Assembly: GCA_001795385.1 (NCBI GenBank)
Contig: MGOU01000010.1
Location: 203-64,202, forward strand
Direction of reading: 5' to 3'
From: Clostridiales bacterium GWD2_32_19
Lineage (GTDB): Bacteria; Bacillota; Clostridia; Lachnospirales; UBA12420
Length of the DNA stretch: 64,000 nt
Made by a program: the position numbers and the translations under genes. Under the pieces are notes generated by a model, which was given only the letters and a program-made list of their open reading frames with translations, did not search any database and was not told the DNA's origin. This document shows, one piece after another, positions 7,447 to 60,684 of the stretch (within the stretch, counting starts at the first letter, position 1; the number at the start of each line of letters is the position of its first letter).

Positions 7447-7601
7447 CTTAGGGTCAATTCCCCGCAGCTCTGCTGCGTGCGTCCTGTCATTGCGAGGTAC
7501 GAAGCAATCTTGTACTTAAGCTAAAGGAGAGATTGCTTCGTAAAAAGATGCTCGCAATGACAAATAGATACCCCGCAGCTTTGCTGCGGGGAGAATTCAT
7601 T
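7447..7601. repeat. nested-palindrome repeat, family 1, copy A (divergent)
   Basis: Outer ccccgcagc...gctgcgggg, middle gtcattgcgag...ctcgcaatgac, inner gaagcaatct...agattgcttc. Confidence 0.85.
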
Positions 7602-12176: not shown

Positions 12177-12419
12177 ATGGAACCAAAACAACAGCAAAAG
12201 AGAATGATGAAGAAAAGAAAAAAGATTTGTAATTTTTGCTTAAATGAAACAAATAGTTTAGATTATAAAGATTTAAATAAGATAAAGAAATTTATATCTG
12301 AAAGAGGTAAAATATTACCTAGAAGAGTTACAGGAAATTGTGCTAAACATCAAAGACTAGTTACAACGGCGATTAAAAGAGCTAGAATAATGGCGTTACT
12401 TAGTTTCGTAGAAGAATAA
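12177..12419 (+). CDS. rpsR: 30S ribosomal protein S18
   Basis: CNFC...DYKD...[18 protein letters not shown]...KHQR. Confidence 0.95.
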
Positions 12420-12506
12420 AAATAAACTGCCCTGTACTCAATGCGACATATTATGAGTTTTGCTCATGACAAGCTGAGTATAGGCAGTTTTAATTTGTAA
12501 TTATTT

Positions 12507-12670
12507 TTAATCCCTTTGGGTTTAATTCCCCGTCGGCTTGCCGCGTTCTTGTCATTGCGAGGAGGTTCTTTCGACGAAGCAATCTCGTTTTTGAAAGATG
12601 AGATTGCTTTGCAAAAAACGCTCGCAATGACAACATGATACCCTGTCGGCTTGCCACGAGGAGATTCATT
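12507..12670. repeat. nested-palindrome repeat, family 1, copy B
   Basis: Near-identical to copies C and D: ttaatccctttgggtttaattccccgtcggcttgcc...gtcattgcgagg...gaagcaatctc...ctcgcaatgac...ggagattcatt. Confidence 0.9.
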
Positions 12671-12871
12671 AATGAACGAACCGACCCTGAAACACATAAA
12701 AAAGCGAGACAATGGAATTTGAATGAATTATTTGAAAAAAAATTCTAAAAATAATATCTATATATTGCTTTTTTTTGATTTATTTGGTATTATATAGGAA
12801 TAGAACAATAACTAATAATCAGTTATTGTTAAGAGATAGAGAAATTTCAAAATAAAGATAGGAGGACTAAG

Positions 12872-18924: not shown

Positions 18925-19114
18925 TTTTACACACCTCCATTTATCGATTACAGTGCACAATATATAATGCACAATTATTAAAACTATAGATAGATTTTAT
19001 TATATTTTTTAAAATAAGTCAAGAGAAAGCAAAGTAATTTTAAAAAAAACGACAGTTTTACATTTTTTTATACAAAAGTCTTTTAAATTTTATTTTTATA
19101 TGATAAAATAAGTT

Positions 19115-19278
19115 TTAATCTCTTTGGGTTTAATTCCCCGTCGGCTTGCCGTGTTCTTGTCATTGCGAGGAGGTTCTTTCGACGAAGCAATCTCGTTTTT
19201 GAAAGATAAGATTGCTTCGCAAAAAACGCTCGCAATGACAATATGATACCCCGTCGGCTTGCCACGGGGAGATTCATT
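19115..19278. repeat. nested-palindrome repeat, family 1, copy C
   Basis: Same architecture as copy B; it ends 19 nt before the rsmE ATG. Confidence 0.9.
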
Positions 19279-19296
19279 TAGGAAGGAGTAGATATT

Positions 19297-24783: not shown

Positions 24784-24855
24784 ATAATACTGATAAAATA
24801 TATTGAATATGAAGGGATAGTGTAGTATTTAGTACTATAAATATTTTACACTACC
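24784..24855 (+). repeat. family 2 hairpin repeat, copy 1 (long form), upstream of valS
   Basis: Core gggatagtgtagtatttagtactataaatattttacactacc at 24814-24855, with a 5' extension ataatactgataaaatatattgaata. It ends 24 nt before the ATG. Confidence 0.9.
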
Positions 24856-24878
24856 AATATAAGAAGGGAGAGATTTTA

Positions 24879-29619: not shown

Positions 29620-29748
29620 TTTTAATTACAAAATATTACAAATAAATAACAAATTATAATCGTAAGATAATTAACAGAATAAGAATTTTAAATTACCAAT
29701 ATAGAAGAGCAGAGGAAAACAGCTTGAAGTAAGGACATAATTAAATAT

Positions 29749-31491: not shown

Positions 31492-31645
31492 AAACAATGA
31501 AGTTTATAATAACTCTACAATGACGATCTTATCAGTAGATAAAGTATTGGAAAAAATAATTTATATGATATATTTAATATTCTCTTTCGAAAATAAAGAG
31601 GATATTTTTTGTGTAAAAAATTCTTTCATTTCACTTAATTGTTCT
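31492..31645. repeat. ~150-bp direct repeat, copy 1 (ABC-exporter 3'-end remnant plus genuine splB 3' end)
   Basis: Aligns with 34691-34839 at roughly 85% identity by eye. 31492-31543 mimics the last codons of the ABC gene, with a 1-nt deletion. Confidence 0.8.
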
Positions 31646-32860: not shown

Positions 32861-32892
32861 GGTACCGTGTCTATGTAGGTACGGTGTTTTTT
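32861..32892 (+). terminator. candidate attenuator/terminator
   Basis: ggtaccgtgtctatgtaggtacggtg followed by tttttt; the stem is ~8 bp including G-U pairs. Confidence 0.45.
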
Positions 32893-32909
32893 GATTGGCA
32901 ATTATTAGT

Positions 32910-32951
32910 GGGATAGTGTAGTATTTAGTACTATGAATATTTTACACTACC
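32910..32951 (+). repeat. family 2 hairpin repeat, copy 2, upstream of the ABC exporter
   Basis: gggatagtgtagtatttagtactatgaatattttacactacc; ends 24 nt before the ATG. Confidence 0.9.
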
Positions 32952-32974
32952 AGTAGTGAAGAGAGGGTGACTTA

Positions 32975-34741
32975 ATGAAAGATTTAGAAAATGAAGAAAA
33001 GAAGTTTACGAAAGAAGAAACAATAGGTCTAGTAAAAAAAATATGGGTATACATGAGTAAATATAAAAAACTTGTTGTTATTATATTAACTATGACAACG
33101 ATAATGAGTTTTTTACAAATATTTAATGCATTAATTTGGGCTAAAGGGTTAGCAAATTTAATAAAAAATGATTTTAAAATGTTTATTATGTATTTTATAT
33201 TATTTGCTATATTGTGGGTAATAGATACAATATTTGTTTTAATAAATAATAATTCATATGCAAGATTTGAGAGTAACTTTATAACAGATATAAAAAGGGA
33301 AATGTATGAGAAGGTATTGAATGTAGGAGTAAATATCTTTGATAATAAAAAGAGTGGAGAAATAATAAATAAGGTATCTTCAGAGCCAAATATTGTAATT
33401 AACAATTTAAAACAAATATTTAGTATATTTGTGGGATTATTAACAGCAGCAGGGGTTGTAGTTTTCGCCTATATTTTATGTCCTCCAATAGGGATGTATT
33501 ATTTGATAGCTTTAACCATTACTTATATATTGTTTAAGCAAAATGGAGTAAAGATTAAAAAGATACAAAATAGTATAAAAAGATCAGATGATAAAGTAGT
33601 AAGTATATTAAACCAGAGTATACAAGGGATAAGAGAAGTGAAAGGATTAGGAATAAAGGAGAGTATATTGTCGAAGTTTATAGTTTATTTATATGTATTA
33701 AGAAAAAAACAATTAAAAAATACATATATAACAATAAGCTTCGATATAAGTATTTCGATTCTAAAGGTAATTACAATAGTGAGTATTCTTATTACTGGTG
33801 GGTGGTATGTATACACAGGAAAACTTGCATTAGAATATTTTTTAGTAATAGATGGTTGCACATGGTTTGCATTGCAGCAATTTGATAAAATATCATCACT
33901 AAATCAATTAGTACAAGGATTGAATGTGTCGTTAACTAGAATATTTGAGGTTCTTGATGATGATGTATACACAATTGAAAAGTTTGGAGACAAAAATGTA
34001 GAGAATGTATACGGACAAATTGAAATCAAAGATTTATCATTTGCGTACGACAACAATAGTAAAGTACTAGAAAAAGTAAATATACATATACCAAAGAATA
34101 AAAAGATAGCTATAGTAGGAAAAAGCGGAAGTGGAAAAAGTACATTGTTTAGTCTTTTACTTAGGTTTTATGACTACGAAGAGGGCGAGATATTAATCGA
34201 TGGAATAAACATAAAAGAATTTACTGAGGAGTCTTTAAGAAAACATATATCGGTTATAAGACAGGAGCCGTTTTTATTTAATTCTACAATAAAAGAAAAT
34301 CTAGCTATGGTAAAACCAGATGCAATATTGGATGAAATAAGGGAATCATGTAAAATTGCATATATTGATGAGTATATAATGAATTTGCCGAAGCAGTATG
34401 ATACATTAATAGGAGAAGGCGGAGTAAACCTATCTGGTGGACAGAAGCAAAGATTAGCAATAGCAAGAGCAATGCTAAAAAAATCGAAGATTATGCTATT
34501 TGACGAAGCAACGAGTGCACTTGATAATGAATCACAATATAATGTGAAAAAAGCTATTGATGAAGTAGCAAGAGAGCATACAGTAATCATAATAGCTCAT
34601 AGGCTCTCAACCGTAATAGATTGCGATGAGATGATACTGCTTGACAGCGGAAAAGTTGTAGCAAGAGGTACGCACGATGATTTGATTAAAAACAGTGAAG
34701 TTTATAATAAACTATACAATGTCGATCTTATCAATGGATAA
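32975..34741 (+). CDS. ABC exporter, fused permease/ATPase (MsbA/multidrug type)
   Basis: 6-TM N-terminal half, Walker A GKSGSGKST, signature LSGGQKQR, Walker B IMLFDEATSALD. Confidence 0.9.
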   Translation: MKDLENEEKKFTKEETIGLVKKIWVYMSKYKKLVVIILTMTTIMSFLQIFNALIWAKGLANLIKNDFKMFIMYFILFAILWVIDTIFVLINNNSYARFESNFITDIKREMYEKVLNVGVNIFDNKKSGEIINKVSSEPNIVINNLKQIFSIFVGLLTAAGVVVFAYILCPPIGMYYLIALTITYILFKQNGVKIKKIQNSIKRSDDKVVSILNQSIQGIREVKGLGIKESILSKFIVYLYVLRKKQLKNTYITISFDISISILKVITIVSILITGGWYVYTGKLALEYFLVIDGCTWFALQQFDKISSLNQLVQGLNVSLTRIFEVLDDDVYTIEKFGDKNVENVYGQIEIKDLSFAYDNNSKVLEKVNIHIPKNKKIAIVGKSGSGKSTLFSLLLRFYDYEEGEILIDGINIKEFTEESLRKHISVIRQEPFLFNSTIKENLAMVKPDAILDEIRESCKIAYIDEYIMNLPKQYDTLIGEGGVNLSGGQKQRLAIARAMLKKSKIMLFDEATSALDNESQYNVKKAIDEVAREHTVIIIAHRLSTVIDCDEMILLDSGKVVARGTHDDLIKNSEVYNKLYNVDLING

Positions 34742-34839
34742 AGCCGTTGACAAAACAATTTATATGATATAAAAAATATTCTCTTTAAAATAAAGAGGAT
34801 ATTTTTATGTTAAAAGTCCTTCATTTCACTTAATTGTTC
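34691..34839. repeat. ~150-bp direct repeat, copy 2 (genuine ABC 3' end plus splB 3'-end remnant)
   Basis: See copy 1. The minus strand of 34762-34839 reads EQLSEMKDF*, a truncated echo of the splB C-terminus EQLSEMKEFF... Confidence 0.8.
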
Positions 34840-34840
34840 C

Positions 34841-34887
34841 TATAGTTTCAACAAGTTTTTAAAAACTTGTTGAAACTATACAATTTT
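34841..34887 (+). terminator. 40-bp perfect palindrome followed by a T-run
   Basis: tatagtttcaacaagttttt|aaaaacttgttgaaactata, then caattttttt. Confidence 0.7.
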
Positions 34888-34985
34888 TTTGTTATAATAA
34901 AATTTAATATGGATGAAATTGCTAATACAAAAGTGTAAAATACTTATTTTTAAAAAGATAAAATAAGATAATGTGGAGAGTGGAT

Positions 34986-36815
34986 ATGAATAGGGTGCAA
35001 AAAAAACAAAATAATAAAAAAGGATTTACATTATTAGAACTAATTGCAGTATTAGTAATATTAGCAATAATTTCAATGATAGCAGTACCATTATTCATGA
35101 ACAAAAGTGTGGCAGCAAAACAAATAGCACATAATGAAAATGTTAGAATATTATTCTCACAAGGGCAAGCGTATTTAGTAAAAGAAAAAGTAAGTTTTCC
35201 ACAAGTTAATATAATAGATGATATGGTAGCAAAAGGATACATAAAGGAAATACCTGATAACCCACTAGGAGGTGCCCCTTATATTGTAGCGGTAAATGAT
35301 AGTGGAGTAATAACAGTAACACCAGAGATGGTAGAAGTAACAGGGGTGATTGTTGAGGAGTTAGATACTATTGTACCAACAGTAGTAATAACAGCAAATA
35401 CACTAGATTCGACATCAGAATCAATCATCACATACACAATGGAATTCAGTGAAAATATTATAGAGTTTGGCACAGAAGATGTAGTAGTAACAAATGGAAC
35501 AAAAGGTATATTTACCGCAGTAGACCAAAAAATATATACATTGGTAGTAACAAACAGCGGACCATGTACCCAAACAGTAACAGTAAATGAAGGAGTATGT
35601 ACAGATGAAGTAGGGAACAACAATGTAAGTGGAAGCAAGAGCATAATAATAACAGCGCTAATATATAATGGAACACATAATATCCCAAAACTCGTAACGG
35701 GAATGACACCAGTAAAATGGGTAGGAACCACAGAAACAGAAACAATATCAACAGACCCACTCTGGTACCTATATAATGGAGACATAGAAAGCACAGTAGG
35801 TGGTACACAATACACAGCAGATAAATGGGCAAATGTAAAATTAGTAGATGGAAGTTTATTTGTATGGATACCAAGATACACATACAATATAAAAGAAAGT
35901 GGCGGGACAAGTAAAATATGGATAAAATATAGTAATGGAACGATAGACGACACAAGTTTAAATGCAGCAAATAGTAACACACCATTTAAGGTACATCCAG
36001 CCTTTAACTTTGGGGGTAAACAACTAACAGGAATATGGGTAGCTAAATTTGAAGCGAGTAATAATGGAAGTGGTAAAGTACAGGTGAGACCTGGAATAGT
36101 GAGTTGGACAGGTATAGGTGTAGATGCTATATTTACAGCATGTAGAGCAATGCAAAACGCTAGTAACCCATATGGAATAAGCACAGATACAAATGTAATA
36201 GATACGCACATGATGAAAAATAACGAATGGGCAGCAGTGGCATATCTCACGGAAGCTATAAGAGATAGAAATGAAATAGAAATGAATAGTGATAATAACT
36301 GCTATACAGGTGGAAGTAGTACAGTTACAACAGTATATGGAGCAAATGTAGTGCAAGGTAATACAGGAAATGTATACGCAATATATGACCTAAGTGGTGG
36401 AGCTTGGGAATATGCTGCGAGTTATGTACAAAATCATGATGTACCAGGGGATGGAGTAGAAAACTATGATTTTGGATATCTAGTAACATATGCAAATAGC
36501 TTAATAAGTGCAGTAACAGACTATAAAAATGAGCTAACAGGAGCATTTGACGGAACACAGGAAACAGCATATAATGTGACATCAACACAAACAGATGGAA
36601 TGGCACTACATGAAATAGCGGACTCATTTTCATTAACTAGTACGTTCCAAGGATACGGTGATTATCAATCGTTTGCGTATAGTATGTTTCCAGTTTTCAT
36701 TCGCGGTGGGTGCTATAGTAATACTGGTTCTGCGGGTGTATTCGCGTATATGAGTACCAGCGGAGCAGGTAATACTACTCGTTCTTTCCGTCCTGTGTTA
36801 ATAGGGTTTGAGTAA
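34986..36815 (+). CDS. modular type IV pilin-like protein: prepilin signal/pilin head, Ig-like domain, FGE-sulfatase (SUMF1)-like domain
   Basis: KKG|FTLLELIAVLVILAIISMIAVP is a class III signal with E5. The FGE-like C-terminus shows GIWVAKFEAS, VSWTGIGVDAIFTACRAM, NNEWAAVAYL, YDLSGGAWEYAASYV and FIRGGCY...SFRPVL. The start is chosen at ATG 34986 after ggagag. Confidence 0.75.
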   Translation: MNRVQKKQNNKKGFTLLELIAVLVILAIISMIAVPLFMNKSVAAKQIAHNENVRILFSQGQAYLVKEKVSFPQVNIIDDMVAKGYIKEIPDNPLGGAPYIVAVNDSGVITVTPEMVEVTGVIVEELDTIVPTVVITANTLDSTSESIITYTMEFSENIIEFGTEDVVVTNGTKGIFTAVDQKIYTLVVTNSGPCTQTVTVNEGVCTDEVGNNNVSGSKSIIITALIYNGTHNIPKLVTGMTPVKWVGTTETETISTDPLWYLYNGDIESTVGGTQYTADKWANVKLVDGSLFVWIPRYTYNIKESGGTSKIWIKYSNGTIDDTSLNAANSNTPFKVHPAFNFGGKQLTGIWVAKFEASNNGSGKVQVRPGIVSWTGIGVDAIFTACRAMQNASNPYGISTDTNVIDTHMMKNNEWAAVAYLTEAIRDRNEIEMNSDNNCYTGGSSTVTTVYGANVVQGNTGNVYAIYDLSGGAWEYAASYVQNHDVPGDGVENYDFGYLVTYANSLISAVTDYKNELTGAFDGTQETAYNVTSTQTDGMALHEIADSFSLTSTFQGYGDYQSFAYSMFPVFIRGGCYSNTGSAGVFAYMSTSGAGNTTRSFRPVLIGFE

Positions 36816-36885
36816 TCCTAGACCTTGGTATTTTCAAAGCAGTATTAAACAGTGTAAAGCAGAAAAATAAAGAAAAAATAAATGA

Positions 36886-36920
36886 AAAATGACATATATA
36901 TAATATATGTCATTTTTCGT
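36886..36920 (+). terminator. rho-independent terminator
   Basis: aaaaatgacatatat / atatatgtcattttt. Confidence 0.75.
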
Positions 36921-37012
36921 TAAAAAAAATATCTATTGTGTTGAAATATCTATGAAAGTGGTATATAATGTAAGTATATTTGAACAACATAAGAAAGGGG
37001 CAAAAGACATAT

Positions 37013-39139
37013 ATGGAAGTGGCTAGAAAATTACTTAAGCAGTACTTTGGATATGATGAGTTTAGAAAAGGACAAAAAGATATAATAGAAAGCATTTTAA
37101 ATAAAAAAGATGTAATGGGTATTATGCCAACGGGTGGTGGTAAATCTATATGTTTTCAGATACCAGCACTTATATTTGAAGGTGTTACGATAGTGATATC
37201 ACCACTTATATCGCTTATGAAAGACCAAGTAGATTCATTGAATATAGTAGGAATACCTGCTACATTTATTAATAGTTCATTATCTACAACGGAGTATAGA
37301 AATAGAATGATGGCTATACAAAACAACAAATATAAAATCATATATGTTGCACCTGAAAGACTTGAAAGTGAGGCATTTATAGCCTCAATGAAGAGGATAA
37401 ACATATCTCAAATAGCCATAGATGAGGCTCATTGCGTATCACACTGGGGGCATGATTTTAGAAAAAGCTATATAAAGATAAAAGATTTTATTGATATTTT
37501 TAGTATTAGACCTATAATTACAGCATTTACAGCTACTGCGACAGAAGAAGTAAAAAAAGATATTACAGTGCAGTTAGGACTTAAATCTCCTAATATCACA
37601 ATAACAGGTTTTGACCGAGAAAACCTAAAATTGATTATAGTGAGAAATGCTAGCAAACAAAAGTTTATAGTAAGTTACATAGAAGAAAATAAACATGTTT
37701 CGGGTATAATATATTGTGCTACAAGAAAAGAAACTGACAAATTACACACTTTGCTTAGCAAATTAGGGTATAGTGTGGGGAAATATCATGCCGGAATGAG
37801 TGAAAGTTCGAGAGAAAAGAGTCAGGAAGATTTTTTGTATGATAACAAAAGCATTATGATAGCTACCAATGCTTTCGGTATGGGGATAGATAAGTCTAAT
37901 ATACGTTATGTTATACATAATAATATGCCAAAAAATCTGGAAGCATATTATCAAGAAATAGGTAGAGCGGGTCGTGATGGTGAGAAGAGCGAGTGCGTAT
38001 TGCTGTTTGGAAGTCAAGATATAATACTTCAAAAATACTTTATTGAAGAGCTTGGAGATAGCTCAGAAGCTGTAAAGCAAAACAAATACGAGCAACTCCA
38101 AAGAATGATAGATTATTCATATACTACAAGCTGCCTAAGAAAGCATGTTTTAAATTATTTTGGAGAGGAACGTGCGGATGAAAAATGTGATAACTGTAGC
38201 AATTGTAGTGATTATTTAGAAAAGAAGGATATGACGATAGAGGCTCAAAAAATATTATCATGTGTATATAGAATGAACCAGCGTTTTGGAACAAACATAG
38301 TGACAAAAGTACTCAAAGGTTCACACGCACAGCAAACAGATTCATTTAGGGAGTTATCTACATTTGGAATCATGAAAGAATGTGCAGTGAACGATATAAA
38401 AGAATATATAAATGTACTAATAGCAGACGGATATTTGAAAATGGAGGGTGACAAGTACCCTATAATAAAACTTACAGAGAATTCTGCAAAAATTTTAAAA
38501 GAAAATGATAAGGTATACATACAAACCATAAAACACAAAGAAGTGTCAGAAAATGAGGGACTGTTCGAGATATTAAGACAACTTAGAAAAGAAATTTCGG
38601 TAGAAGAAAATGTACCGCCATTTGTTGTATTTAGTGATGCAACACTCAAAGAAATGTCGAGTAGATATCCAATAAGTAAGGCACAGATTTTGAATATATC
38701 TGGAGTGGGAGAAGTAAAATATGAAAAATATGGAGAAAGATTTATAGATGAGATAAAAGCATATATACATAACAATAATTTAGACATAGATAATATGAAA
38801 TCAGATACTAAAACTTATACTTCACATAAAATAAAAGAAACAAATAAAGAAGCCAGCTACATCACAACAGCAAACCTATATTTAAACCTTAGAGATATGG
38901 ATGCAGTAGTCAAAGAGCGAAATCTAAAGCCAATGACAATACAGGATCATATAATATCTGCATACATGGAAGGATTTCAATTAGACATAAATGAGTTTAT
39001 TCCTAAAGGACAAGAAAGTTTTGTACTTGAAGCAATCAAAAAGGTAGGCACAGAAAAGTTAAGGCCGATAAAAGATCTACTACCAGAGGATGTAAGCTAC
39101 CTAACAATAAAGGCAGTAATAGCAAAACATAAGTTATAA
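37013..39139 (+). CDS. recQ: ATP-dependent DNA helicase RecQ
   Basis: MPTGGGKS, DEAHCVSHWGHDFR, a Zn-binding Cys cluster (CDNCSNC), and an HRDC-like region. ATG 37013 is preferred over the tracked TTG 36980. Confidence 0.92.
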   Translation: MEVARKLLKQYFGYDEFRKGQKDIIESILNKKDVMGIMPTGGGKSICFQIPALIFEGVTIVISPLISLMKDQVDSLNIVGIPATFINSSLSTTEYRNRMMAIQNNKYKIIYVAPERLESEAFIASMKRINISQIAIDEAHCVSHWGHDFRKSYIKIKDFIDIFSIRPIITAFTATATEEVKKDITVQLGLKSPNITITGFDRENLKLIIVRNASKQKFIVSYIEENKHVSGIIYCATRKETDKLHTLLSKLGYSVGKYHAGMSESSREKSQEDFLYDNKSIMIATNAFGMGIDKSNIRYVIHNNMPKNLEAYYQEIGRAGRDGEKSECVLLFGSQDIILQKYFIEELGDSSEAVKQNKYEQLQRMIDYSYTTSCLRKHVLNYFGEERADEKCDNCSNCSDYLEKKDMTIEAQKILSCVYRMNQRFGTNIVTKVLKGSHAQQTDSFRELSTFGIMKECAVNDIKEYINVLIADGYLKMEGDKYPIIKLTENSAKILKENDKVYIQTIKHKEVSENEGLFEILRQLRKEISVEENVPPFVVFSDATLKEMSSRYPISKAQILNISGVGEVKYEKYGERFIDEIKAYIHNNNLDIDNMKSDTKTYTSHKIKETNKEASYITTANLYLNLRDMDAVVKERNLKPMTIQDHIISAYMEGFQLDINEFIPKGQESFVLEAIKKVGTEKLRPIKDLLPEDVSYLTIKAVIAKHKL

Positions 39140-39207
39140 TACTGATAAAATATATTGAATAAAAAGGGATAGTGTAGTATTTAGTACTATAAATATTTTA
39201 CACTACC
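39136..39207 (+). repeat. family 2 hairpin repeat, copy 3 (long form), overlapping the recQ stop
   Basis: ataatactgataaaatatattgaata...gggatagtgtagtatttagtactataaatattttacactacc. Confidence 0.9.
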
Positions 39208-39223
39208 TAATGGAGATGGAGGG

Positions 39224-39844
39224 ATGAATATGGAAAATAACATAATAGATGGAAAATTTATAGGTGAACTTAATAACAACCCCGACATTACAAAATATAA
39301 TCAGTTAAAAGAGGTATTACAAAAACGATTTAACACTAATATTAAAATGTGTTTAGGAGTTTTAGAAAAGCATAAAGAAGAATTAGCAGAGCAAGATGGT
39401 TATCTTACAGTAGAGGACGAAATCGAAAGTCAATTTTTAGATATAACTTTCGATAGTATAGAAAATAATTACATAATATATTATTCGCAAGAAATAGAAG
39501 GAGATTATAATGAATTTACAGCAGTAATATCGATATCAACCAAAATAAAAGTTGAGGAAGATTATGTCCCAATATGTGATGGTAGAATATTAGATGGATT
39601 GGTTCAAGTAAAATCTGAGTTAGATGGCATAAAATCTGAATATTATGAAGTAAATCTTAGGAAAGTAGATTTAGAGACTGCAGAGCATATATTTAGCATG
39701 AAAAAACTAAGTGATCAAACCCCTGATCTAGTTAAGGAAGTACCTTATTTAGTAAGAATAGAAGATCCTTTCAATTCTGTGCTACAAGAAATGAGCGATG
39801 TCCCTATATATGATTTAACAATGTATTGCTTGCCAGAATTATAA
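39224..39844 (+). CDS. acidic hypothetical protein (206 aa; alternative start ATG 39230)
   Basis: ORF preceded by ggagatggaggg; no motif recognised. Confidence 0.6.
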   Translation: MNMENNIIDGKFIGELNNNPDITKYNQLKEVLQKRFNTNIKMCLGVLEKHKEELAEQDGYLTVEDEIESQFLDITFDSIENNYIIYYSQEIEGDYNEFTAVISISTKIKVEEDYVPICDGRILDGLVQVKSELDGIKSEYYEVNLRKVDLETAEHIFSMKKLSDQTPDLVKEVPYLVRIEDPFNSVLQEMSDVPIYDLTMYCLPEL

Positions 39845-42509: not shown

Positions 42510-42542
42510 TGTGAGATATGAGACAAATATGTTGAATATAAA

Positions 42543-42584
42543 GGGATAGTGTAGTATTTAGTACTATAAATATTTTACACTATC
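42543..42584 (+). repeat. family 2 hairpin repeat, copy 4
   Basis: gggatagtgtagtatttagtactataaatattttacactatc; ends 24 nt before the ATG at 42608. Confidence 0.9.
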
Positions 42585-42607
42585 ACATAAACCAAGGGGG
42601 AATATAT

Positions 42608-45639: not shown

Positions 45640-46920
45640 GTGGAAAGAGATTTATATGTGAGTGTTTCGGATTTAAATAAATATATAAAAGATAGATTGA
45701 AGTCAGATGAAGCTCTTATGAATGTGTTTATAAGAGGAGAAATCTCCAATTTTAAAGATCATTTTAGGGGGCATTATTATTTTAGTATAAAAGATGAAGG
45801 TTCTAAGATTGATGCAGTTATGTTTTCAAATAAAAATAAATATTTAAATTTTAAACCGCGTGATGGTATGAAAGTTTTAGTTGTAGGAGCTATAGATGTA
45901 TATGAGGTCACAGGCTCTTACCAAATATATGTTGAGATTATGGAAGAGGATGGACTAGGAAATCTACATATGAAATTTGAAAAGTTAAAAGAAAAACTTG
46001 CAAATGAGGGACTTTTTGATGTAGTGCATAAGAAGGAAATACCAAAATTTCCACATACGATAGGGATCGTAACTGCACCAACGGGCGCGGCAGTAAAAGA
46101 CATATTAAGTACCATCGAAAGAAGGAACCCTGCTACAAAGACTATAATTTTTCCTACACTGGTTCAAGGAGAAGGCGCAAAAGAAAGCATAGCACTTCAA
46201 ATAGAGAGAGCACAAAACTACGATATAGATGTACTAATTGTCGGTCGTGGAGGTGGCTCTATTGAGGATTTGTGGGCATTTAATGAGGAAATAGTAGCTA
46301 GAGCAATATATAACTCCAAAATACCTATTATATCAGCTGTAGGCCATGAGATAGATTTCACGATAGCTGATTTTGTAGCTGACATGAGAGCACCGACTCC
46401 AACAGGAGCAGCAGAAATGGCAGTACCTAATGTGTTAGATGTATTAGAGAACTTGGAGCAAATGAATACCAGGATGACAAACAGTATGAAGAATACGATT
46501 AAGACATATATGACAAAGCTAGAAACACTAACAAATTCTAGAGTTTTGACAAAACCTATGGAAATGTATGCATTAAAAGAACAACAGCTCGATAATATAT
46601 TGGAGAGATTTAGAGTAGGATTTATTAATTATTATAATACTAAAAATAATAATATTGATTACTTGATTGACAAATTAAACATGCTGAGCCCTCTAAATAG
46701 TTTGAAAAGGGGATATTCTTTTACAACATTAGAAGACGGAAATATGCTCAAGTCGGTGAATAATGTAAGAATAGGAGAAAGAGTTACTATAGAAGTAGTT
46801 GATGGCAAACTTTCAGCGATAGTAGGAGCCACGCATATGGGTAGTAAAGCATTAGAAGGCAGAAAAAAGGTCAAGATAAAAGGTGAAAATATAGACGATA
46901 TACAATTAAAATTAGAATAG
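45640..46920 (+). CDS. xseA: exodeoxyribonuclease VII large subunit
   Basis: VSDLNKYIK...ISNFKDH..GHYYFSIKD OB-fold N-terminus and ARGGGS-like GRGGGSIEDLW. The start is ambiguous (GTG 45631, ATG 45634 or GTG 45640). Confidence 0.9.
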   Translation: MERDLYVSVSDLNKYIKDRLKSDEALMNVFIRGEISNFKDHFRGHYYFSIKDEGSKIDAVMFSNKNKYLNFKPRDGMKVLVVGAIDVYEVTGSYQIYVEIMEEDGLGNLHMKFEKLKEKLANEGLFDVVHKKEIPKFPHTIGIVTAPTGAAVKDILSTIERRNPATKTIIFPTLVQGEGAKESIALQIERAQNYDIDVLIVGRGGGSIEDLWAFNEEIVARAIYNSKIPIISAVGHEIDFTIADFVADMRAPTPTGAAEMAVPNVLDVLENLEQMNTRMTNSMKNTIKTYMTKLETLTNSRVLTKPMEMYALKEQQLDNILERFRVGFINYYNTKNNNIDYLIDKLNMLSPLNSLKRGYSFTTLEDGNMLKSVNNVRIGERVTIEVVDGKLSAIVGATHMGSKALEGRKKVKIKGENIDDIQLKLE

Positions 46921-46922
46921 AA

Positions 46923-46964
46923 AGGATAGTGTAGTATTTAGTACTATAAATATTTTACACTACC
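46923..46964 (+). repeat. family 2 hairpin repeat, copy 5, between xseA and xseB
   Basis: aggatagtgtagtatttagtactataaatattttacactacc; ends 24 nt before the ATG at 46988. Confidence 0.9.
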
Positions 46965-46987
46965 ATAGAAAGGAAGGAGATATAAGA

Positions 46988-50645: not shown

Positions 50646-51890
50646 TTACATATATCTTCTACTTCTAAGTCTTGGTCGACATGAACGACAACCTGAAAAA
50701 TCATCCTTATCGTCGTCATCAAGATTAAAAGCAGATACAGCAGTTTTATAAGGTTCTCTTCTGCCGTTACAATTTATACAGTCTTCGTTACAACCACAAC
50801 CAAACTCACAATCATAACCACACATATTATCTTCGGTTATAAAGTGTTTGCCCTTTTCGCAGAAAATATCTTCCTCATATTCATCAGGCATATATAAATC
50901 ATTCTCGGGTAACATTTCATCATTTTCGTAAGCACCTCTCACATCCATGTTAGGTGAAACATTATTTTGGTAAGCACCGCTCACATCCATGTTAGGTGAA
51001 ACATTGTTTTGGTAAGCACCGCTCACATCCATGTTAGGTGAAACATTATTTTGATAAGCACCTCTTACATCCATGTTAGGTGAAACATTATTTTGATAAG
51101 CACCTCTTACATCCATGTTAGGTGAAACATTGTTTTCGTAAGCACCTCTTACATCCATATTAGGTGAAACATTGTTTTCGTAAGCACCTCTCACATCCAT
51201 GTTAGGTGAAACATTGTTTTGGTAAGCACCTCTCACATTCATATTAGGTGAAATATTATTTTCATAATTATCTCCCATGAAAAGAGGTTCGAAATCTTCA
51301 TCTTCCATGTCAAAATCATTTTCTATTGGTAGCTCTTTGTTTACACCTAGAACATTATTATCGTTTTCCATTGCTCTGTAGCTTATACAGAACCTTTTGT
51401 AATAGTTTTCAAGAATGTTATAATGCATAATTTCAGCTCTCAATATGGTGGTAAGTATCGTCTTAATGCGTGTATCTGCTATCTCACTTATTAATTTTCT
51501 ATATCCGTCAATACCAGCTTTTTTTAGAGACATATCAGATTTTAACATATCACAAATATTTTTCTTATAATCTACCAATTTAGCAGACCAATACTCTGAT
51601 TTATGATTGCTATATTTATACTCAGGGTCACCACCAAGCGTTATAATTAAGTCAGCAAGGATGTGCATATGTTCCATATCATCAACGTGTATTTCTTCTA
51701 CATCTTCTGCTAAATCTTTATTAACATCCTCATAAAAGTTTAAATGATACATATATTGCATAACCAGTGTAAGCTCGCTTACTTCACCAGCATAAATATT
51801 CATTAACATATCAGCATAATCTCTGTTTAAATCCATGGTATTTGCTTCTGGATTTATAGGTTTATTATTTGAAGTATAGTTGTCATACAT
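50646..51890 (-). CDS. ferritin-like diiron-motif domain, 8 x 14-aa tandem repeats and a Cys-rich tail (spore coat-like)
   Basis: N-terminal E(36/39), E73xxH76, E136 and E153xxH156 ligand pattern (GEVSE, MEHMH, LISE, AEIMH). Repeats are NNVSPNMDVRGAYQ/E x8. The tail has CEFGCGCNEDCINC and GCRSC. Confidence 0.7.
   Translation of the reverse strand: MYDNYTSNNKPINPEANTMDLNRDYADMLMNIYAGEVSELTLVMQYMYHLNFYEDVNKDLAEDVEEIHVDDMEHMHILADLIITLGGDPEYKYSNHKSEYWSAKLVDYKKNICDMLKSDMSLKKAGIDGYRKLISEIADTRIKTILTTILRAEIMHYNILENYYKRFCISYRAMENDNNVLGVNKELPIENDFDMEDEDFEPLFMGDNYENNISPNMNVRGAYQNNVSPNMDVRGAYENNVSPNMDVRGAYENNVSPNMDVRGAYQNNVSPNMDVRGAYQNNVSPNMDVSGAYQNNVSPNMDVSGAYQNNVSPNMDVRGAYENDEMLPENDLYMPDEYEEDIFCEKGKHFITEDNMCGYDCEFGCGCNEDCINCNGRREPYKTAVSAFNLDDDDKDDFSGCRSCRPRLRSRRYM
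50925..51260 (-). repeat. 42-bp in-frame tandem repeat, 8 copies
   Basis: The unit ggtgaaacattrttttsgtaagcaccgctcacatccatgtta recurs head to tail. Copies differ at a few positions, giving R/S and Q/E changes. Confidence 0.95.
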
Positions 51891-60378: not shown

Positions 60379-60442
60379 TCGAAGCAAAGCTTGGACTACT
60401 ATGTTTGTATGAACTGCTGTGTTAATGTATTAGGGTAATAGT

Positions 60443-60606
60443 TTAATCTCTTTGGGTTTAATTCCCCGTCGGCTTGCCGCGTTCTTGTCATTGCGAGGAG
60501 GTTCTTTCGACGAAGCAATCTCGTTTTTGAAAGATGAGATTGCTTCGCAAAAAACGCTCGCAATGACAACATGATACCCCGTCGGCTTGCCATGGGGAGG
60601 TTCATT
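60443..60606. repeat. family 1 repeat, copy D, between accB and fabZ
   Basis: Near-identical to copies B and C. Confidence 0.9.
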
Positions 60607-60684
60607 GTTCTCCCCTGCAAAAGGGAGGAACCAAAGGCACAATTCTTAGCAAATATATTTAGAATAAAATAAGAGGTGATATAA

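What the first reader, a model, noticed from the sequence alone, without database searches (positions are those of the whole stretch)
34986..36815. Orphan 609-aa modular type IV pilin with Ig-like and FGE-sulfatase-like modules
The N-terminus KKG|FTLLELIAVLVILAIISMIAVP is a textbook prepilin peptidase site with Glu5. It is followed by a ~100-aa pilin or pseudopilin head.

The chain then continues with an Ig-like segment (VVITANTLDSTSESIITYTMEFSENIIEFGTEDVVVTNG...). After that comes a C-terminal region whose spaced motifs match the FGE-sulfatase/SUMF1 (C-type-lectin-like) fold: GIWVAKFEAS, VSWTGIGVDAIFTACRAM, NNEWAAVAYL, YDLSGGAWEYAASYV and FIRGGCY...SFRPVL.

No PilB, PilC, PilD or PilM-O genes are in the window; the neighbours are an ABC exporter and recQ. 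The gene also looks compositionally different. It supports stop-free antisense ORFs up to 323 aa, which is unusual for this AT-rich genome. Modular pilins carrying adhesive modules are known in Streptococcus sanguinis (from memory). A pilin displaying an FGE-like module would be an unusual cargo.
Basis: partly seen in the sequence, partly recalled or inferred. Interest (0 to 1): 0.65.

Follow-up and report, generated by a model that had tools for sequence, protein, structure and literature searches.

The report
Pilin carrying a retroelement-type binding module
This gene encodes a surface protein that joins a type IV pilin anchor, an Ig-like spacer and a large lectin-fold binding head; related copies, including one in the same genome, have that head rewritten by a mutagenic retroelement, but this copy appears to be fixed.

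Summary
The 609-aa ORF at 34986-36815 is real. It starts with a canonical prepilin signal (KKG|FTLLE, Glu5) and a small pilin module. A Big_12 Ig-like domain follows, then a ~380-aa C-terminal module.

The AlphaFold model (pLDDT 90) best matches TaqVP, Mtd and TvpA, the variable proteins of diversity-generating retroelements (DGRs). The window protein itself misses Pfam FGE-sulfatase.

The module defines a large uncharacterised family: more than 3,000 clusters at 50% identity, mostly in uncultured Clostridia and Bacilli. It usually sits on pilin-like N-termini.

At least six homologous loci are genuine DGR targets. One is the paralog A2Y18_06425 in the same MAG, where 22 of 22 variable/template repeat mismatches fall at template adenines.

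The window copy keeps the DGR footprint in its last 42 codons: adenine 0.19 versus 0.40, and Arg 3/3 CGY versus 7/7 AGR. It has no template repeat or reverse transcriptase within 64 kb and does not match the genome's known template.

Best reading: a pilin-displayed adhesin whose binding site is a retired, or possibly remotely targeted, DGR variable region. The higher GC and the long antisense ORFs are by-products of amino-acid composition.

The parts
34870..34898 (+). Promoter-like site: TTGAAA, 17-nt spacer, TG-extended TATAAT
   Evidence: 11 of 12 consensus matches with a TG before the -10 hexamer. It lies 88 nt upstream of the ATG, after the ABC exporter's terminator-like hairpin. This is a consensus match only.
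34975..34980 (+). Ribosome-binding site GGAGAG, 5 nt before ATG 34986
   Evidence: Read from the sequence. It supports the 609-aa start over the upstream ATG at 34971.
34986..36815 (+). Complete coding sequence of the 609-aa modular pilin-like protein (stop codon included)
   Evidence: Identical to OGO83482.1 / A2Y18_07640.
34986..35024 (+). Class III (prepilin) leader peptide MNRVQKKQNNKKG, with predicted cleavage after Gly13
   Evidence: PF07963 at residues 9-33 and TIGR02532 at residues 11-34, both above their cut-offs. Gly-1, Phe+1 and Glu+5 are read from the translation.
35025..35360 (+). Mature pilin module (residues 14 to ~125): hydrophobic alpha1 helix and a small head
   Evidence: AF2 model with helix 16-67, short helix 77-82 and a beta hairpin 100-112, pLDDT about 90. 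The family profile hits solved pilins: PilE1 8pfb at E 1e-8 and PilA5 8qqj at E 2e-7. It is 34-44% identical to stand-alone 121-141-aa pilins over up to 92% of its length.
35364..35645 (+). Big_12 bacterial Ig-like domain (residues 127-220), a spacer
   Evidence: PF19078 at E 3e-10, 40.6 bits. The AF2 beta-sandwich spans 133-222. Foldseek hits the Ig-like domains of invasin, InvD, S-layer and adhesin proteins.
35676..36812 (+). C-terminal module with the FGE-subtype C-type-lectin fold (residues ~231-609), the predicted ligand-binding head
   Evidence: AF2 pLDDT 90.1, pTM 0.92. Foldseek against the PDB gives TaqVP 5vf4 at E 1e-10, Mtd at 1e-3 and TvpA at 1e-2. The BFVD viral library gives 24 phage tail-fibre or SUMF-like hits at E<=1e-3. 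Twenty of 39 homologous modules hit PF03781 weakly.
36687..36812 (+). Variable-region-equivalent segment: the last 42 codons, FPVFIRGGCYSNTGSAGVFAYMSTSGAGNTTRSFRPVLIGFE
   Evidence: It aligns codon for codon, without indels, to the DGR template repeat of the paralog locus L084. Adenine fraction is 0.19 against 0.40-0.45 upstream. Adenine-free codons make up 52% against 15%, and Arg is 3/3 CGY against 7/7 AGR. Its adenines sit at the template's adenine sites (15/32 against 9/96, p = 1.4e-5).
36884..36918 (.). Terminator-like hairpin closing the monocistronic unit
   Evidence: One search finds a 16-pair stem. folds 36800-36935 with z = -6.0 against shuffles.

Best explanation
The gene encodes a monocistronic, three-module surface protein.

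1. [quoted passage not shown] Inferred: a prepilin peptidase encoded elsewhere cleaves after Gly13, and the Phe1/Glu5 hydrophobic helix anchors the protein in the membrane and lets it enter a type IV filament. A cargo of about 480 aa most likely places it at the filament tip.

2. A Big_12 Ig-like spacer.

3. A ~380-aa head with the FGE subtype of the C-type-lectin fold. Its last ~42 residues form the ligand-binding surface. This head is homologous to the variable proteins of diversity-generating retroelements and to phage receptor-binding tips. It is a binding module, not an FGE enzyme.

Shown here: the protein belongs to a large family in uncultured Firmicutes in which this head usually sits on pilin-like N-termini. 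Some members, including a paralog in the same genome, have their C-terminal 42 codons rewritten by a DGR.

The window copy still carries the codon footprint of such a variable region. It has no cognate template repeat or reverse transcriptase within 64 kb and has diverged from the genome's known template. It is therefore most likely a fixed-specificity adhesin descended from a DGR target.
For: Architecture:
- N_methyl, TIGR02532 and Big_12 all score above their cut-offs.
- The two AF2 models are confident, pLDDT 90 each.
- The pilin module resembles solved pilins by profile and stand-alone 128-aa pilins.

Head:
- Foldseek gives TaqVP at E 1e-10, then Mtd and TvpA. A sequence profile hits TaqVP at E 6e-7 and 2.8e-4, PvdO at 0.025 and SUMF2 at 0.21.
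- Twenty-four phage tail-fibre or SUMF-like models match at E<=1e-3.
- TaqVP has the FGE subtype of the C-type-lectin fold, with its variable region in the last 40 aa (PMC6328139).
- No Cys is invariant or nearly invariant in the family, so the FGE Cys pair is absent.

Family:
- 3,103 cluster representatives at E<=1e-30.
- At least 584 loci among GTDB species representatives.
- N-termini are mostly GFTLxE or GITLIAL-type.

DGR link:
- Variable/template repeat pairs have mismatches at template adenines: L084 22/22, L044 17/17, L079 20/21, L033 22/25.
- RT and bAvd genes lie alongside.
- L084 encodes P0003 = OGO82272.1, from the same MAG as the window gene.
- In the sister MAG, near-identical alleles of P0009 differ at 13 of 23 positions within the last 42 aa.

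Window footprint: adenine 0.19 against 0.40; Arg 3/3 CGY against 7/7 AGR; adenines concentrated at the template's adenine sites, p = 1.4e-5.

No local DGR: no repeat of the 3' end in the window, no RT among the ORFs scanned, and 33% mismatch at non-adenine sites against the genome's known template.
Against: - No prepilin peptidase, assembly ATPase or platform protein is in the window or within +/-10 kb of about 85 homologous loci. A TadA-type ATPase lies near L003 only.
- Foldseek of the N-terminal model returned only Ig-like hits, not pilins, and the modelled pilin head is minimal, a two-stranded hairpin.
- About half of the family lacks Glu5, which questions filament assembly for the family as a whole.
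- The window protein itself has no Pfam FGE-sulfatase hit.
- A remote template repeat cannot be excluded, because only 64 kb of a 191-kb contig of a MAG was visible. The public-collection scans did not even find the gene itself.
- 'Same genome' rests on MAG binning.
- Nothing here is experimental.
Confidence: 0.55

Rival explanations
1. The window gene is a live, remote (trans) DGR target. A template repeat and reverse transcriptase elsewhere in the genome still rewrite its last 42 codons, so it is a hypervariable adhesin.
For: - Its variable-region footprint is as strong as that of the DGR-positive locus L033.
- Remote targets are documented for cellular DGRs (PMC5758913).
- In the sister MAG, P0009 has no template repeat within +/-10 kb, yet its alleles differ mainly in the variable region, and that region matches the L084 template with 12 of 16 mismatches at adenines.
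- Only 64 kb of the genome was visible.
Against: - The only known template in this genome mismatches the window segment at 33% of non-adenine sites.
- That DGR's reverse transcriptase carries an in-frame TAG in two independent assemblies.
- The two deposited copies of the window protein are identical.
- The 3' end (TTTCCGTCCTGTGTTAATAGGGTT) is more AT-rich than the GC-rich end of the L084 repeats.
Confidence: 0.15
2. The pilin-like N-terminus is only a membrane anchor or export signal. The protein is a cell-surface receptor that never polymerises into a filament, comparable to class III signal peptides on archaeal bindosome sugar-binding proteins (from established knowledge).
For: - Family members and even the related small pilins are scattered singly among housekeeping genes, away from any pilus operon.
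- Many family members lack Glu5 or carry ordinary signal peptides or transmembrane segments instead.
- The modelled pilin head is minimal.
Against: - The window protein has the full canonical motif: Gly-1, Phe+1, Glu+5, Pro+22.
- It has a complete small pilin module 34-44% identical to stand-alone pilins.
- Modular pilins with bulky cargo are experimentally established filament subunits in S. sanguinis (PMC8179133).
- Minor pilin genes are often unlinked from the machinery genes (from established knowledge).
Confidence: 0.25
3. The C-terminal module is an FGE/SUMF1-type or EgtB/OvoA-type enzyme displayed on a pilus, the 'unusual enzymatic cargo' reading.
For: The fold is shared with FGE, OvoA and EgtB at low Foldseek significance (E 0.17-2). 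Half of the homologs hit Pfam FGE-sulfatase weakly.
Against: - No conserved Cys pair. The single Cys in RGGC is a variable position in the family.
- No DinB-type iron-binding domain.
- The best matches are non-enzymatic variable proteins and phage receptor-binding tips.
- The equivalent segment is hypermutated by DGRs in relatives, which is incompatible with a fixed active site.
Confidence: 0.03
4. The gene is a prophage or phage-derived tail-fibre (receptor-binding) gene rather than a cellular surface protein.
For: The head is structurally similar to phage tail-fibre tips and to Mtd.
Against: - The flanks are housekeeping genes: ABC exporter, recQ, spore photoproduct lyase, valS.
- GC3 is native.
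- The prepilin signal and Ig-like spacer are cellular surface-display features.
- The unit is monocistronic, with its own promoter and terminator.
Confidence: 0.02

Closest known systems
Modular type IV pilins (PilB and PilC of Streptococcus sanguinis; survey in Raynaud et al. 2021, PMC8179133)
   Same: [quoted passage not shown] The architectures IPR012902-IPR005532 (pilin + FGE-sulfatase, 8 proteins) and IPR012902-IPR044048 (pilin + Big_12, 7 proteins) are already in that paper's Dataset S1.
   Different: This protein has three modules: pilin, Big_12 and a divergent lectin-fold head that current Pfam models do not detect. The gene is not in a pilus operon. Relatives of the head are DGR-diversified, which is not described for modular pilins. 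Filament incorporation is untested here.
DGR variable proteins with the FGE-subtype C-type-lectin fold (TaqVP 5VF4, Mtd 1YU0, TvpA 2Y3C)
   Same: These are the best structural and profile matches. The variable region occupies the last ~40-45 residues and ends in a conserved ...FR(P)V... strand. Scaffold residues use adenine-free codons. Family members, including a same-genome paralog, have variable/template repeat pairs with adenine-specific mismatches plus a reverse transcriptase.
   Different: The window copy has no template repeat or reverse transcriptase within 64 kb and does not match the known template. The head is fused to a pilin and an Ig-like domain, rather than being a lipoprotein (TvpA), a phage fibre (Mtd) or a single domain (TaqVP). 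Identity to TaqVP is only ~17%, TM-score 0.46.
DGR-diversified type V pilus adhesins of Bacteroides (bioRxiv 10.1101/2024.11.15.621889)
   Same: The concept is the same: a DGR rewrites the adhesive tip component of a pilus in gut bacteria (abstract seen).
   Different: A different pilus class (type V, lipoprotein and strand-exchange assembly) and a different phylum. This family has a type IV prepilin N-terminus and occurs in Firmicutes.
Pfam FGE-sulfatase (PF03781): FGE/SUMF1, PvdO, EgtB and OvoA C-terminal domains
   Same: The same superfamily fold. The ...YG(I/V)YD(L/M)xG(G/N)(A/V)WE(Y/W)... motif and the C-terminal RGG...FR motif are shared.
   Different: The window protein scores below any reporting threshold. 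The catalytic Cys pair is absent. The N-terminal half of the module (MTPIKW...WANA...VWIPRY...HPAF) is family-specific.

Membership tests
Type IV pilin / class III signal peptide proteins (PF07963, TIGR02532) | N-terminal methylation/cleavage motif scoring above the curated cut-offs | tested here: met
   PF07963 scores 31.5 bits (cut-off 21.2). TIGR02532 scores 31 bits (cut-off 16.3).
Type IV pilin / class III signal peptide proteins (PF07963, TIGR02532) | Short basic leader ending in Gly-1, then Phe+1, Glu+5 and about 20 hydrophobic residues | tested here: met
   MNRVQKKQNNKKG|FTLLELIAVLVILAIISMIAVP, read from the translation.
Type IV pilin / class III signal peptide proteins (PF07963, TIGR02532) | Pilin fold: extended ~50-residue alpha1 helix packed on a beta-sheet head | tested here: inconclusive
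   The AF2 model has helix 16-67 but only a two-stranded hairpin at 100-112. Foldseek returned Ig-like hits only. Sequence profiles do match solved pilins over 90-120 residues.
Type IV pilin / class III signal peptide proteins (PF07963, TIGR02532) | Processing by a prepilin peptidase and assembly by a type IV filament machinery | not testable with these tools
   No such genes are in the 64-kb window. The rest of the genome could not be read.
Modular pilins (sensu Raynaud et al. 2021) | A pilin module plus at least one extra domain not specific to type IV pilus biology | tested here: met
   Big_12 plus the lectin-fold head. Definition taken from PMC8179133.
Pfam FGE-sulfatase (PF03781) | Match to the family HMM at the gathering threshold | tested here: not met
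   No hit at E<=1 for the window protein. Twenty of 39 homologous modules hit at E<=1, the best at 3.8e-6.
Pfam FGE-sulfatase (PF03781) | FGE-subtype C-type-lectin fold | tested here: met
   Foldseek: TaqVP E 1e-10 (an FGE-subtype fold according to PMC6328139), Mtd, TvpA, then PorK, OvoA, FGE and EgtB at E 0.1-2.
Formylglycine-generating enzymes proper | Conserved catalytic Cys pair in the C-terminal segment | tested here: not met
   No Cys is among the invariant or >=90% conserved columns of 102- and 39-sequence alignments. The one Cys in RGGC is at a variable position.
DGR variable (target) proteins | Lectin-fold domain with the variable region at the extreme C-terminus | tested here: met
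   Fold. The last 42 codons align without gaps to the template and variable repeats of the same-genome paralog.
DGR variable (target) proteins | Cognate template repeat whose mismatches to the variable repeat are confined to template adenines | tested here: not met
   No repeat of the 3' end occurs in 64 kb. Against the genome's known template there are 49 mismatches, 32 of them at non-adenine sites. A remote template outside the window could not be tested.
DGR variable (target) proteins | DGR reverse transcriptase (with or without Avd) in the locus or genome | tested here: inconclusive
   None among the window ORFs scanned. One lies next to paralog P0003 in the same MAG, but it is interrupted by an in-frame TAG.
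DGR variable (target) proteins | Adenine-poor variable region with scaffold residues in adenine-free codons | tested here: met
   Adenine 0.19 against 0.40. Adenine-free codons 52% against 15% (z +2.7 against -2 to -3 in most upstream blocks). Arg 3/3 CGY. Register concordant with the template's adenines, p = 1.4e-5.

The most novel reading that the evidence does not exclude
The window gene is one of at least three paralogous type IV pilins in this genome whose lectin-fold heads are, or can be, rewritten by a DGR acting in cis on one copy and in trans on the others. Together they would form a repertoire of programmable, hypervariable pilus adhesins in uncultured Firmicutes. The window copy would then be a live remote target, not a fossil.
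Probability: 0.15. Interest if true: 0.85.

Novelty: new variant of a known kind. Interest (0 to 1): 0.6.

Why it matters
Modular pilins and DGR variable proteins are each known. Their combination is a type IV prepilin carrying a DGR-type lectin-fold head. It forms a family of thousands of clusters in gut, rumen and groundwater Firmicutes, and it is essentially undescribed. No paper in the searchable library combines DGRs with prepilins or type IV pilins, and one survey lists a 'G-type pilin' domain only among rare variable-region-holding domains.

If these proteins are real filament subunits, type IV pili in these bacteria would carry adhesins whose specificity can be rewritten by targeted hypermutation. 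That would parallel the recent finding for type V pili in Bacteroides.

The window genome offers a natural comparison: a DGR-linked copy, the fixed-looking copy in this window, and a third paralog with no template repeat within 10 kb. This makes testable how DGR targets are retired or recruited.

For annotation, the family deserves its own profile, because Pfam FGE-sulfatase misses many members.

Tried and rejected
- **Template repeat in the window.** The repeat finder with a 9-nt seed and blastn with word size 7 on the whole gene found nothing above chance.
- **Remote template repeat in public collections.** I used patterns in which each non-A base may also be A. Two scans of metagenome contigs and one of viral contigs gave 0 hits. 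They did not find the gene itself either, so these scans are uninformative. Both patterns do match the gene in the window.
- **Window gene as a target of the genome's known template.** Rejected: 33% mismatch at non-adenine sites.
- **Variable-region variants of the window protein.** The only other cluster member is identical.
- **Pilus machinery.** Regex motifs for T2SSE-type ATPases and A24 peptidases across 89 loci found nothing, but the test is weak because it also missed the ATPase in L003. That ATPase is TadA-type, so I did not use it as a probe.
- **Fold search of the N-terminal model.** It was dominated by the Ig-like domain and gave no pilin hits.
- **Short-query homology search.** The N-terminal 127 aa returned only 10 hits and missed known paralogs, so it is not a census.
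- **Horizontal transfer and an antisense gene.** Both rejected: GC3 is native and the antisense ORF length lies within the range of codon permutations.
Full report
**1. The observation**

The ORF exists as described. The ORF listing gives 34971..36815 (+). An identical 609-aa protein is deposited as OGO83482.1 (A2Y18_07640) from the metagenome-assembled genome 'Clostridiales bacterium GWD2_32_19'.

Pfam and NCBIfam confirm two domains above their curated cut-offs. One is the prepilin N-terminal methylation motif (PF07963 at residues 9-33, TIGR02532). The other is a Big_12 bacterial Ig-like domain at residues 127-220. Nothing is reported for residues ~230-609, not even FGE-sulfatase at E<=1.

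The gene looks monocistronic. A TTGAAA-17-TGnTATAAT promoter-like site lies at 34870-34898, and a strong hairpin lies at 36884-36918.

The flanks are housekeeping genes:
- spore photoproduct lyase (- strand);
- an ABC exporter;
- recQ;
- a MatE transporter;
- further away, valS with a T-box leader, addB, pcrA, fatty-acid synthesis genes and others.

No second prepilin motif occurs in any frame of the window.

**2. The compositional claims**

The gene's GC (0.358) exceeds its neighbours' (0.28-0.34) only at codon position 2 (0.41). GC3 is 0.21, as in the neighbours. The difference therefore reflects a Gly/Thr/Ser/Ala-rich protein, not foreign origin.

The long antisense ORF (340 stop-free codons) is reached by 5% of synonymous-codon permutations of the same protein (mean 194 +/- 65). 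It needs no separate explanation.

**3. The N-terminal third**

An AlphaFold2 model of residues 1-230 (pLDDT 90.5) shows these elements:
- a continuous helix at 16-67;
- a short helix at 77-82;
- a beta hairpin at 100-112;
- an Ig-like sandwich at 133-222.

A profile of the family matches solved type IV pilins over 90-120 residues: PilE1 of S. sanguinis 8pfb at E 1e-8, PilA5 8qqj at 2e-7, and MshA, PilA and GspG. The first 127 residues are 34-44% identical to stand-alone 121-141-aa N_methyl proteins over up to 92% of their length.

Foldseek on this model returned only Ig-like domains of adhesins, invasins and S-layer proteins. The pilin fold is therefore supported by sequence and secondary structure, not by a fold match.

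The same pilin module (61-63% identity over the aligned N-terminal 230 residues) carries a different cargo, DUF6273, in P0112 and in P0115 of the sister MAG GWD2_32_59. It behaves as a carrier with exchangeable heads. This is the 'modular pilin' design defined experimentally for S. sanguinis PilB and PilC (PMC8179133).

**4. The C-terminal module**

A model built on 102 homologs is confident (pLDDT 90.1, pTM 0.92). Its best matches among solved structures are:

| Structure | Foldseek E-value |
|---|---|
| TaqVP, 5vf4 (TM-score 0.46) | 1e-10 |
| Mtd | 1e-3 |
| TvpA | 1e-2 |
| PorK, OvoA, FGE, EgtB | 0.1-2 |

The first three are the variable proteins of diversity-generating retroelements. The TaqVP paper states that TaqVP, Mtd and TvpA have the FGE subtype of the C-type-lectin fold, with the variable region in the last 40-45 residues (PMC6328139).

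Sequence profiles agree: TaqVP at E 6e-7 and 2.8e-4, PvdO at 0.025, SUMF2 at 0.21. Twenty of 39 homologous modules hit Pfam FGE-sulfatase at E<=1 (best 3.8e-6), although the window copy does not.

Among predicted viral structures, 24 match at E<=1e-3. Most are annotated as gut-phage tail fibres, and one as a 'sulfatase-modifying factor enzyme-like' protein.

No cysteine is conserved in the family, so the FGE catalytic pair is absent.

The closest relatives, however, are hypervariable receptor-binding heads, not enzymes.

**5. A large family, usually on pilin-like anchors**

- The first homology search gave more than 1,000 hits, mostly covering the C-terminal 62% of the query.
- An exhaustive profile search found 3,103 cluster representatives (50% identity) at E<=1e-30 and 5,260 at E<=1e-10.
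- At least 584 loci occur among GTDB species representatives. Nearly all are uncultured Clostridia, Bacilli or 'Mollicutes' from gut, rumen and environmental samples, often with several copies per genome.

N-termini fall into three groups:
- canonical GFTLxE prepilins;
- a related K/R-G-ITLIALV type without Glu5;
- a minority with ordinary signal peptides or transmembrane segments.

Middle modules vary: Big_12, DUF5011, fn3, CHB_HEX_C_1.

The genes are typically solitary among housekeeping genes. 'Orphan' is thus a property of the family, not of this locus.

The survey of modular pilins already lists pilin + FGE-sulfatase (8 proteins) and pilin + Big_12 (7 proteins) as architectures.

**6. The DGR connection**

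I blasted the last 240-260 nt of each family gene against its own locus. This gave classic variable repeat (VR) / template repeat (TR) pairs in five loci:

| Locus | VR/TR mismatches at template adenines |
|---|---|
| L084 | 22 of 22 |
| L044 | 17 of 17 |
| L079 | 20 of 21 |
| L033 | 22 of 25 |
| L074 (degenerate pair) | 19 of 37 |

L030 has a further repeat pair next to an RT-like motif. Reverse transcriptase, and in two cases bAvd, genes lie alongside. The templates of different loci are homologous to one another at 69-91% identity.

L084 encodes P0003, a canonical prepilin (KKGFTLLELLAVLVILAALATIAIPIF) whose head is 59% identical to the window's. P0003 carries two accessions. One is OGO82272.1 (A2Y18_06425) of Clostridiales bacterium GWD2_32_19, the MAG that holds the window gene. 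A third paralog, P0011 (A2Y18_07085), is in the same MAG.

The window's genome therefore contains a DGR that targets a sister pilin. Its reverse transcriptase is interrupted by one in-frame TAG in two independent assemblies. The variable repeat is identical in all four assemblies seen. This suggests recent inactivation.

In the sister MAG, near-identical alleles of P0009 differ at 23 residues. Thirteen of these fall in the last 42 residues, at the template-variable positions. No template repeat lies within +/-10 kb, and its variable region matches the L084 template with 12 of 16 mismatches at adenines. Remote targeting therefore probably occurs in this family.

**7. The window copy**

Its last 42 codons (36687-36812) align codon for codon, without indels, to the L084 template and variable repeats. 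They carry the typical footprint of a variable region:

| Measure | Last 42 codons | Rest of the gene |
|---|---|---|
| Adenine fraction | 0.18-0.20 | 0.40-0.45 |
| Codons without adenine | 52% | 15% |
| Arg codons | 3/3 CGY | 7/7 AGR |
| Thr codons | 4/4 ACY | 50/60 ACA |

- The low adenine fraction places these windows among the lowest 0.2% of + strand windows in the 64 kb.
- Across 16 genes of the window, 88% of Arg codons are AGR.
- The remaining adenines sit where the template has adenines: 15 of 32 sites against 9 of 96, p = 1.4e-5.
- Amino-acid differences from the template concentrate in recodable codons: 13 of 19 against 6 of 23, p = 0.012.

Across the family this footprint is a continuum. 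DGR-positive loci lie at the strong end. Copies with AGR arginines and little adenine depletion lie at the weak end. The window copy sits in the upper-middle, similar to the DGR-positive L033.

Against current activity:
- the window holds no template repeat and no reverse transcriptase;
- the segment differs from the genome's known template at 33% of non-adenine sites;
- the only other deposited copy is identical.

Searches of public collections for a remote template were uninformative, because they did not contain this organism's contig.

**8. Mechanism proposed**

Shown:
- the domain architecture;
- the fold;
- family membership;
- DGR targeting of relatives, including a same-genome paralog;
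- the variable-region-like codon footprint;
- the absence of a local DGR.

Inferred:
- cleavage after Gly13 by a prepilin peptidase encoded elsewhere;
- membrane anchoring and filament entry through the Phe1/Glu5 helix;
- display of the Ig-like spacer and lectin head, most plausibly at a filament tip, as argued for bulky modular pilins (PMC8179133);
- ligand binding through the C-terminal 42 residues, with the specificity now fixed.

The main rival for display is a non-polymerising, membrane-anchored receptor. The main rival for dynamics is a live remote DGR target.

**9. Novelty**

Modular pilins and lectin-fold DGR targets are both known. DGR diversification of type V pilus adhesins has been reported for Bacteroides.

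A type IV prepilin fused to a DGR-type head, forming a very large family in Firmicutes, appears not to have been described as such:
- no paper in the library combines DGRs with 'prepilin' or 'type IV pilin';
- the largest survey of DGR targets does not mention pilins.

I classify the finding as a new variant of known kinds. The specific window locus is a probably retired member of that family.

Noticed in passing
window 24784-24872, 32880-32968, 39136-39224, 42513-42601, 46893-46981 (weak copy at 29668-29714): An intergenic repeat family containing GGGATAGTGTAGTATTTAGTACTATAAATATTTTACACTACC. Several copies lie directly upstream of + strand genes, including valS, the ABC exporter next to the target gene, and the ORF at 39224. 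It could be a shared regulatory site or a small repetitive element.
   Followed up: no
window 12499-12679, 19107-19287, 60435-60615 (partial copy at 7543-7594): A 181-nt intergenic repeat, 89-93% identical between copies, with a GC-rich hairpin (CCCCGTCGGCTTGCCACGGGG). It is among the most adenine-poor stretches of the window. It might be a MITE-like element or a small RNA. No Rfam family matched at the gathering threshold.
   Followed up: no
window 50876-51337: A tandem array of 42-nt units (at least 8 overlapping 168-nt copies, 65-95% identical) inside the - strand ORF 50646-51890. That ORF has a ferritin-like N-terminal domain, so the array encodes a 14-aa repeat region.
   Followed up: no
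window 31511-31607 and 34710-34806: A 97-nt direct repeat (77% identical) brackets the block formed by the spore photoproduct lyase gene (- strand) and the ABC exporter gene. The second copy covers the exporter's 3' end and its terminator, immediately upstream of the target gene's promoter. It may be the scar of a duplication or insertion.
   Followed up: no
L084 11892-12923 (same MAG as the window); also L090: The DGR reverse transcriptase next to paralog P0003 is split into 133-aa and 203-aa parts by a single in-frame TAG at 12291-12293. Two independent assemblies show it. This cassette has no Avd gene, and the template repeat lies downstream of the RT.
   Followed up: partly
L085 (P0009) and cluster members P0267-P0269, sister MAG GWD2_32_59: P0009 and P0268, alleles in one 90%-identity cluster, differ at 23 residues. 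Thirteen lie in the last 42 residues, at template-variable positions, yet no template repeat lies within +/-10 kb. The variable region matches the L084 template with 12 of 16 mismatches at adenines. This suggests remote DGR targeting.
   Followed up: partly
L003 7858-12400 and L088 180-3379: In two unrelated contigs, a prepilin-type gene sits directly after the spoIIAA-like (STAS) and sigma-factor genes; L003 also has the anti-sigma kinase (spoIIAB-like) gene between them. The prepilin gene is the 799-aa family member P0004 in L003 and the 121-aa pilin P0122 in L088. In L088 it is followed by spoVA genes. This may indicate a link to sporulation-specific expression.
   Followed up: no
P0112, P0115, P0106, P0049 (P0106 and P0115 are in sister MAG GWD2_32_59; the other two come from unnamed ENA/NCBI assemblies): The same pilin carrier module carries DUF6273 cargo instead of the TaqVP-like head. 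Over the aligned N-terminal 230 residues, identity to the window protein is 61-63% for P0112 and P0115 and 47-51% for P0106 and P0049. P0106 and P0049 also have a Big_12 domain. The carrier appears to accept exchangeable heads.
   Followed up: partly
Family-wide: About half of the family has a pilin-like N-terminus, K/R-G-ITLIALV(I/V)TI(I/V)VLLILAG, that lacks Glu5. Glu5-less pilins such as GspK are tip subunits in known systems (from established knowledge). This subfamily could consist of obligate tip subunits or of non-polymerising anchors.
   Followed up: no
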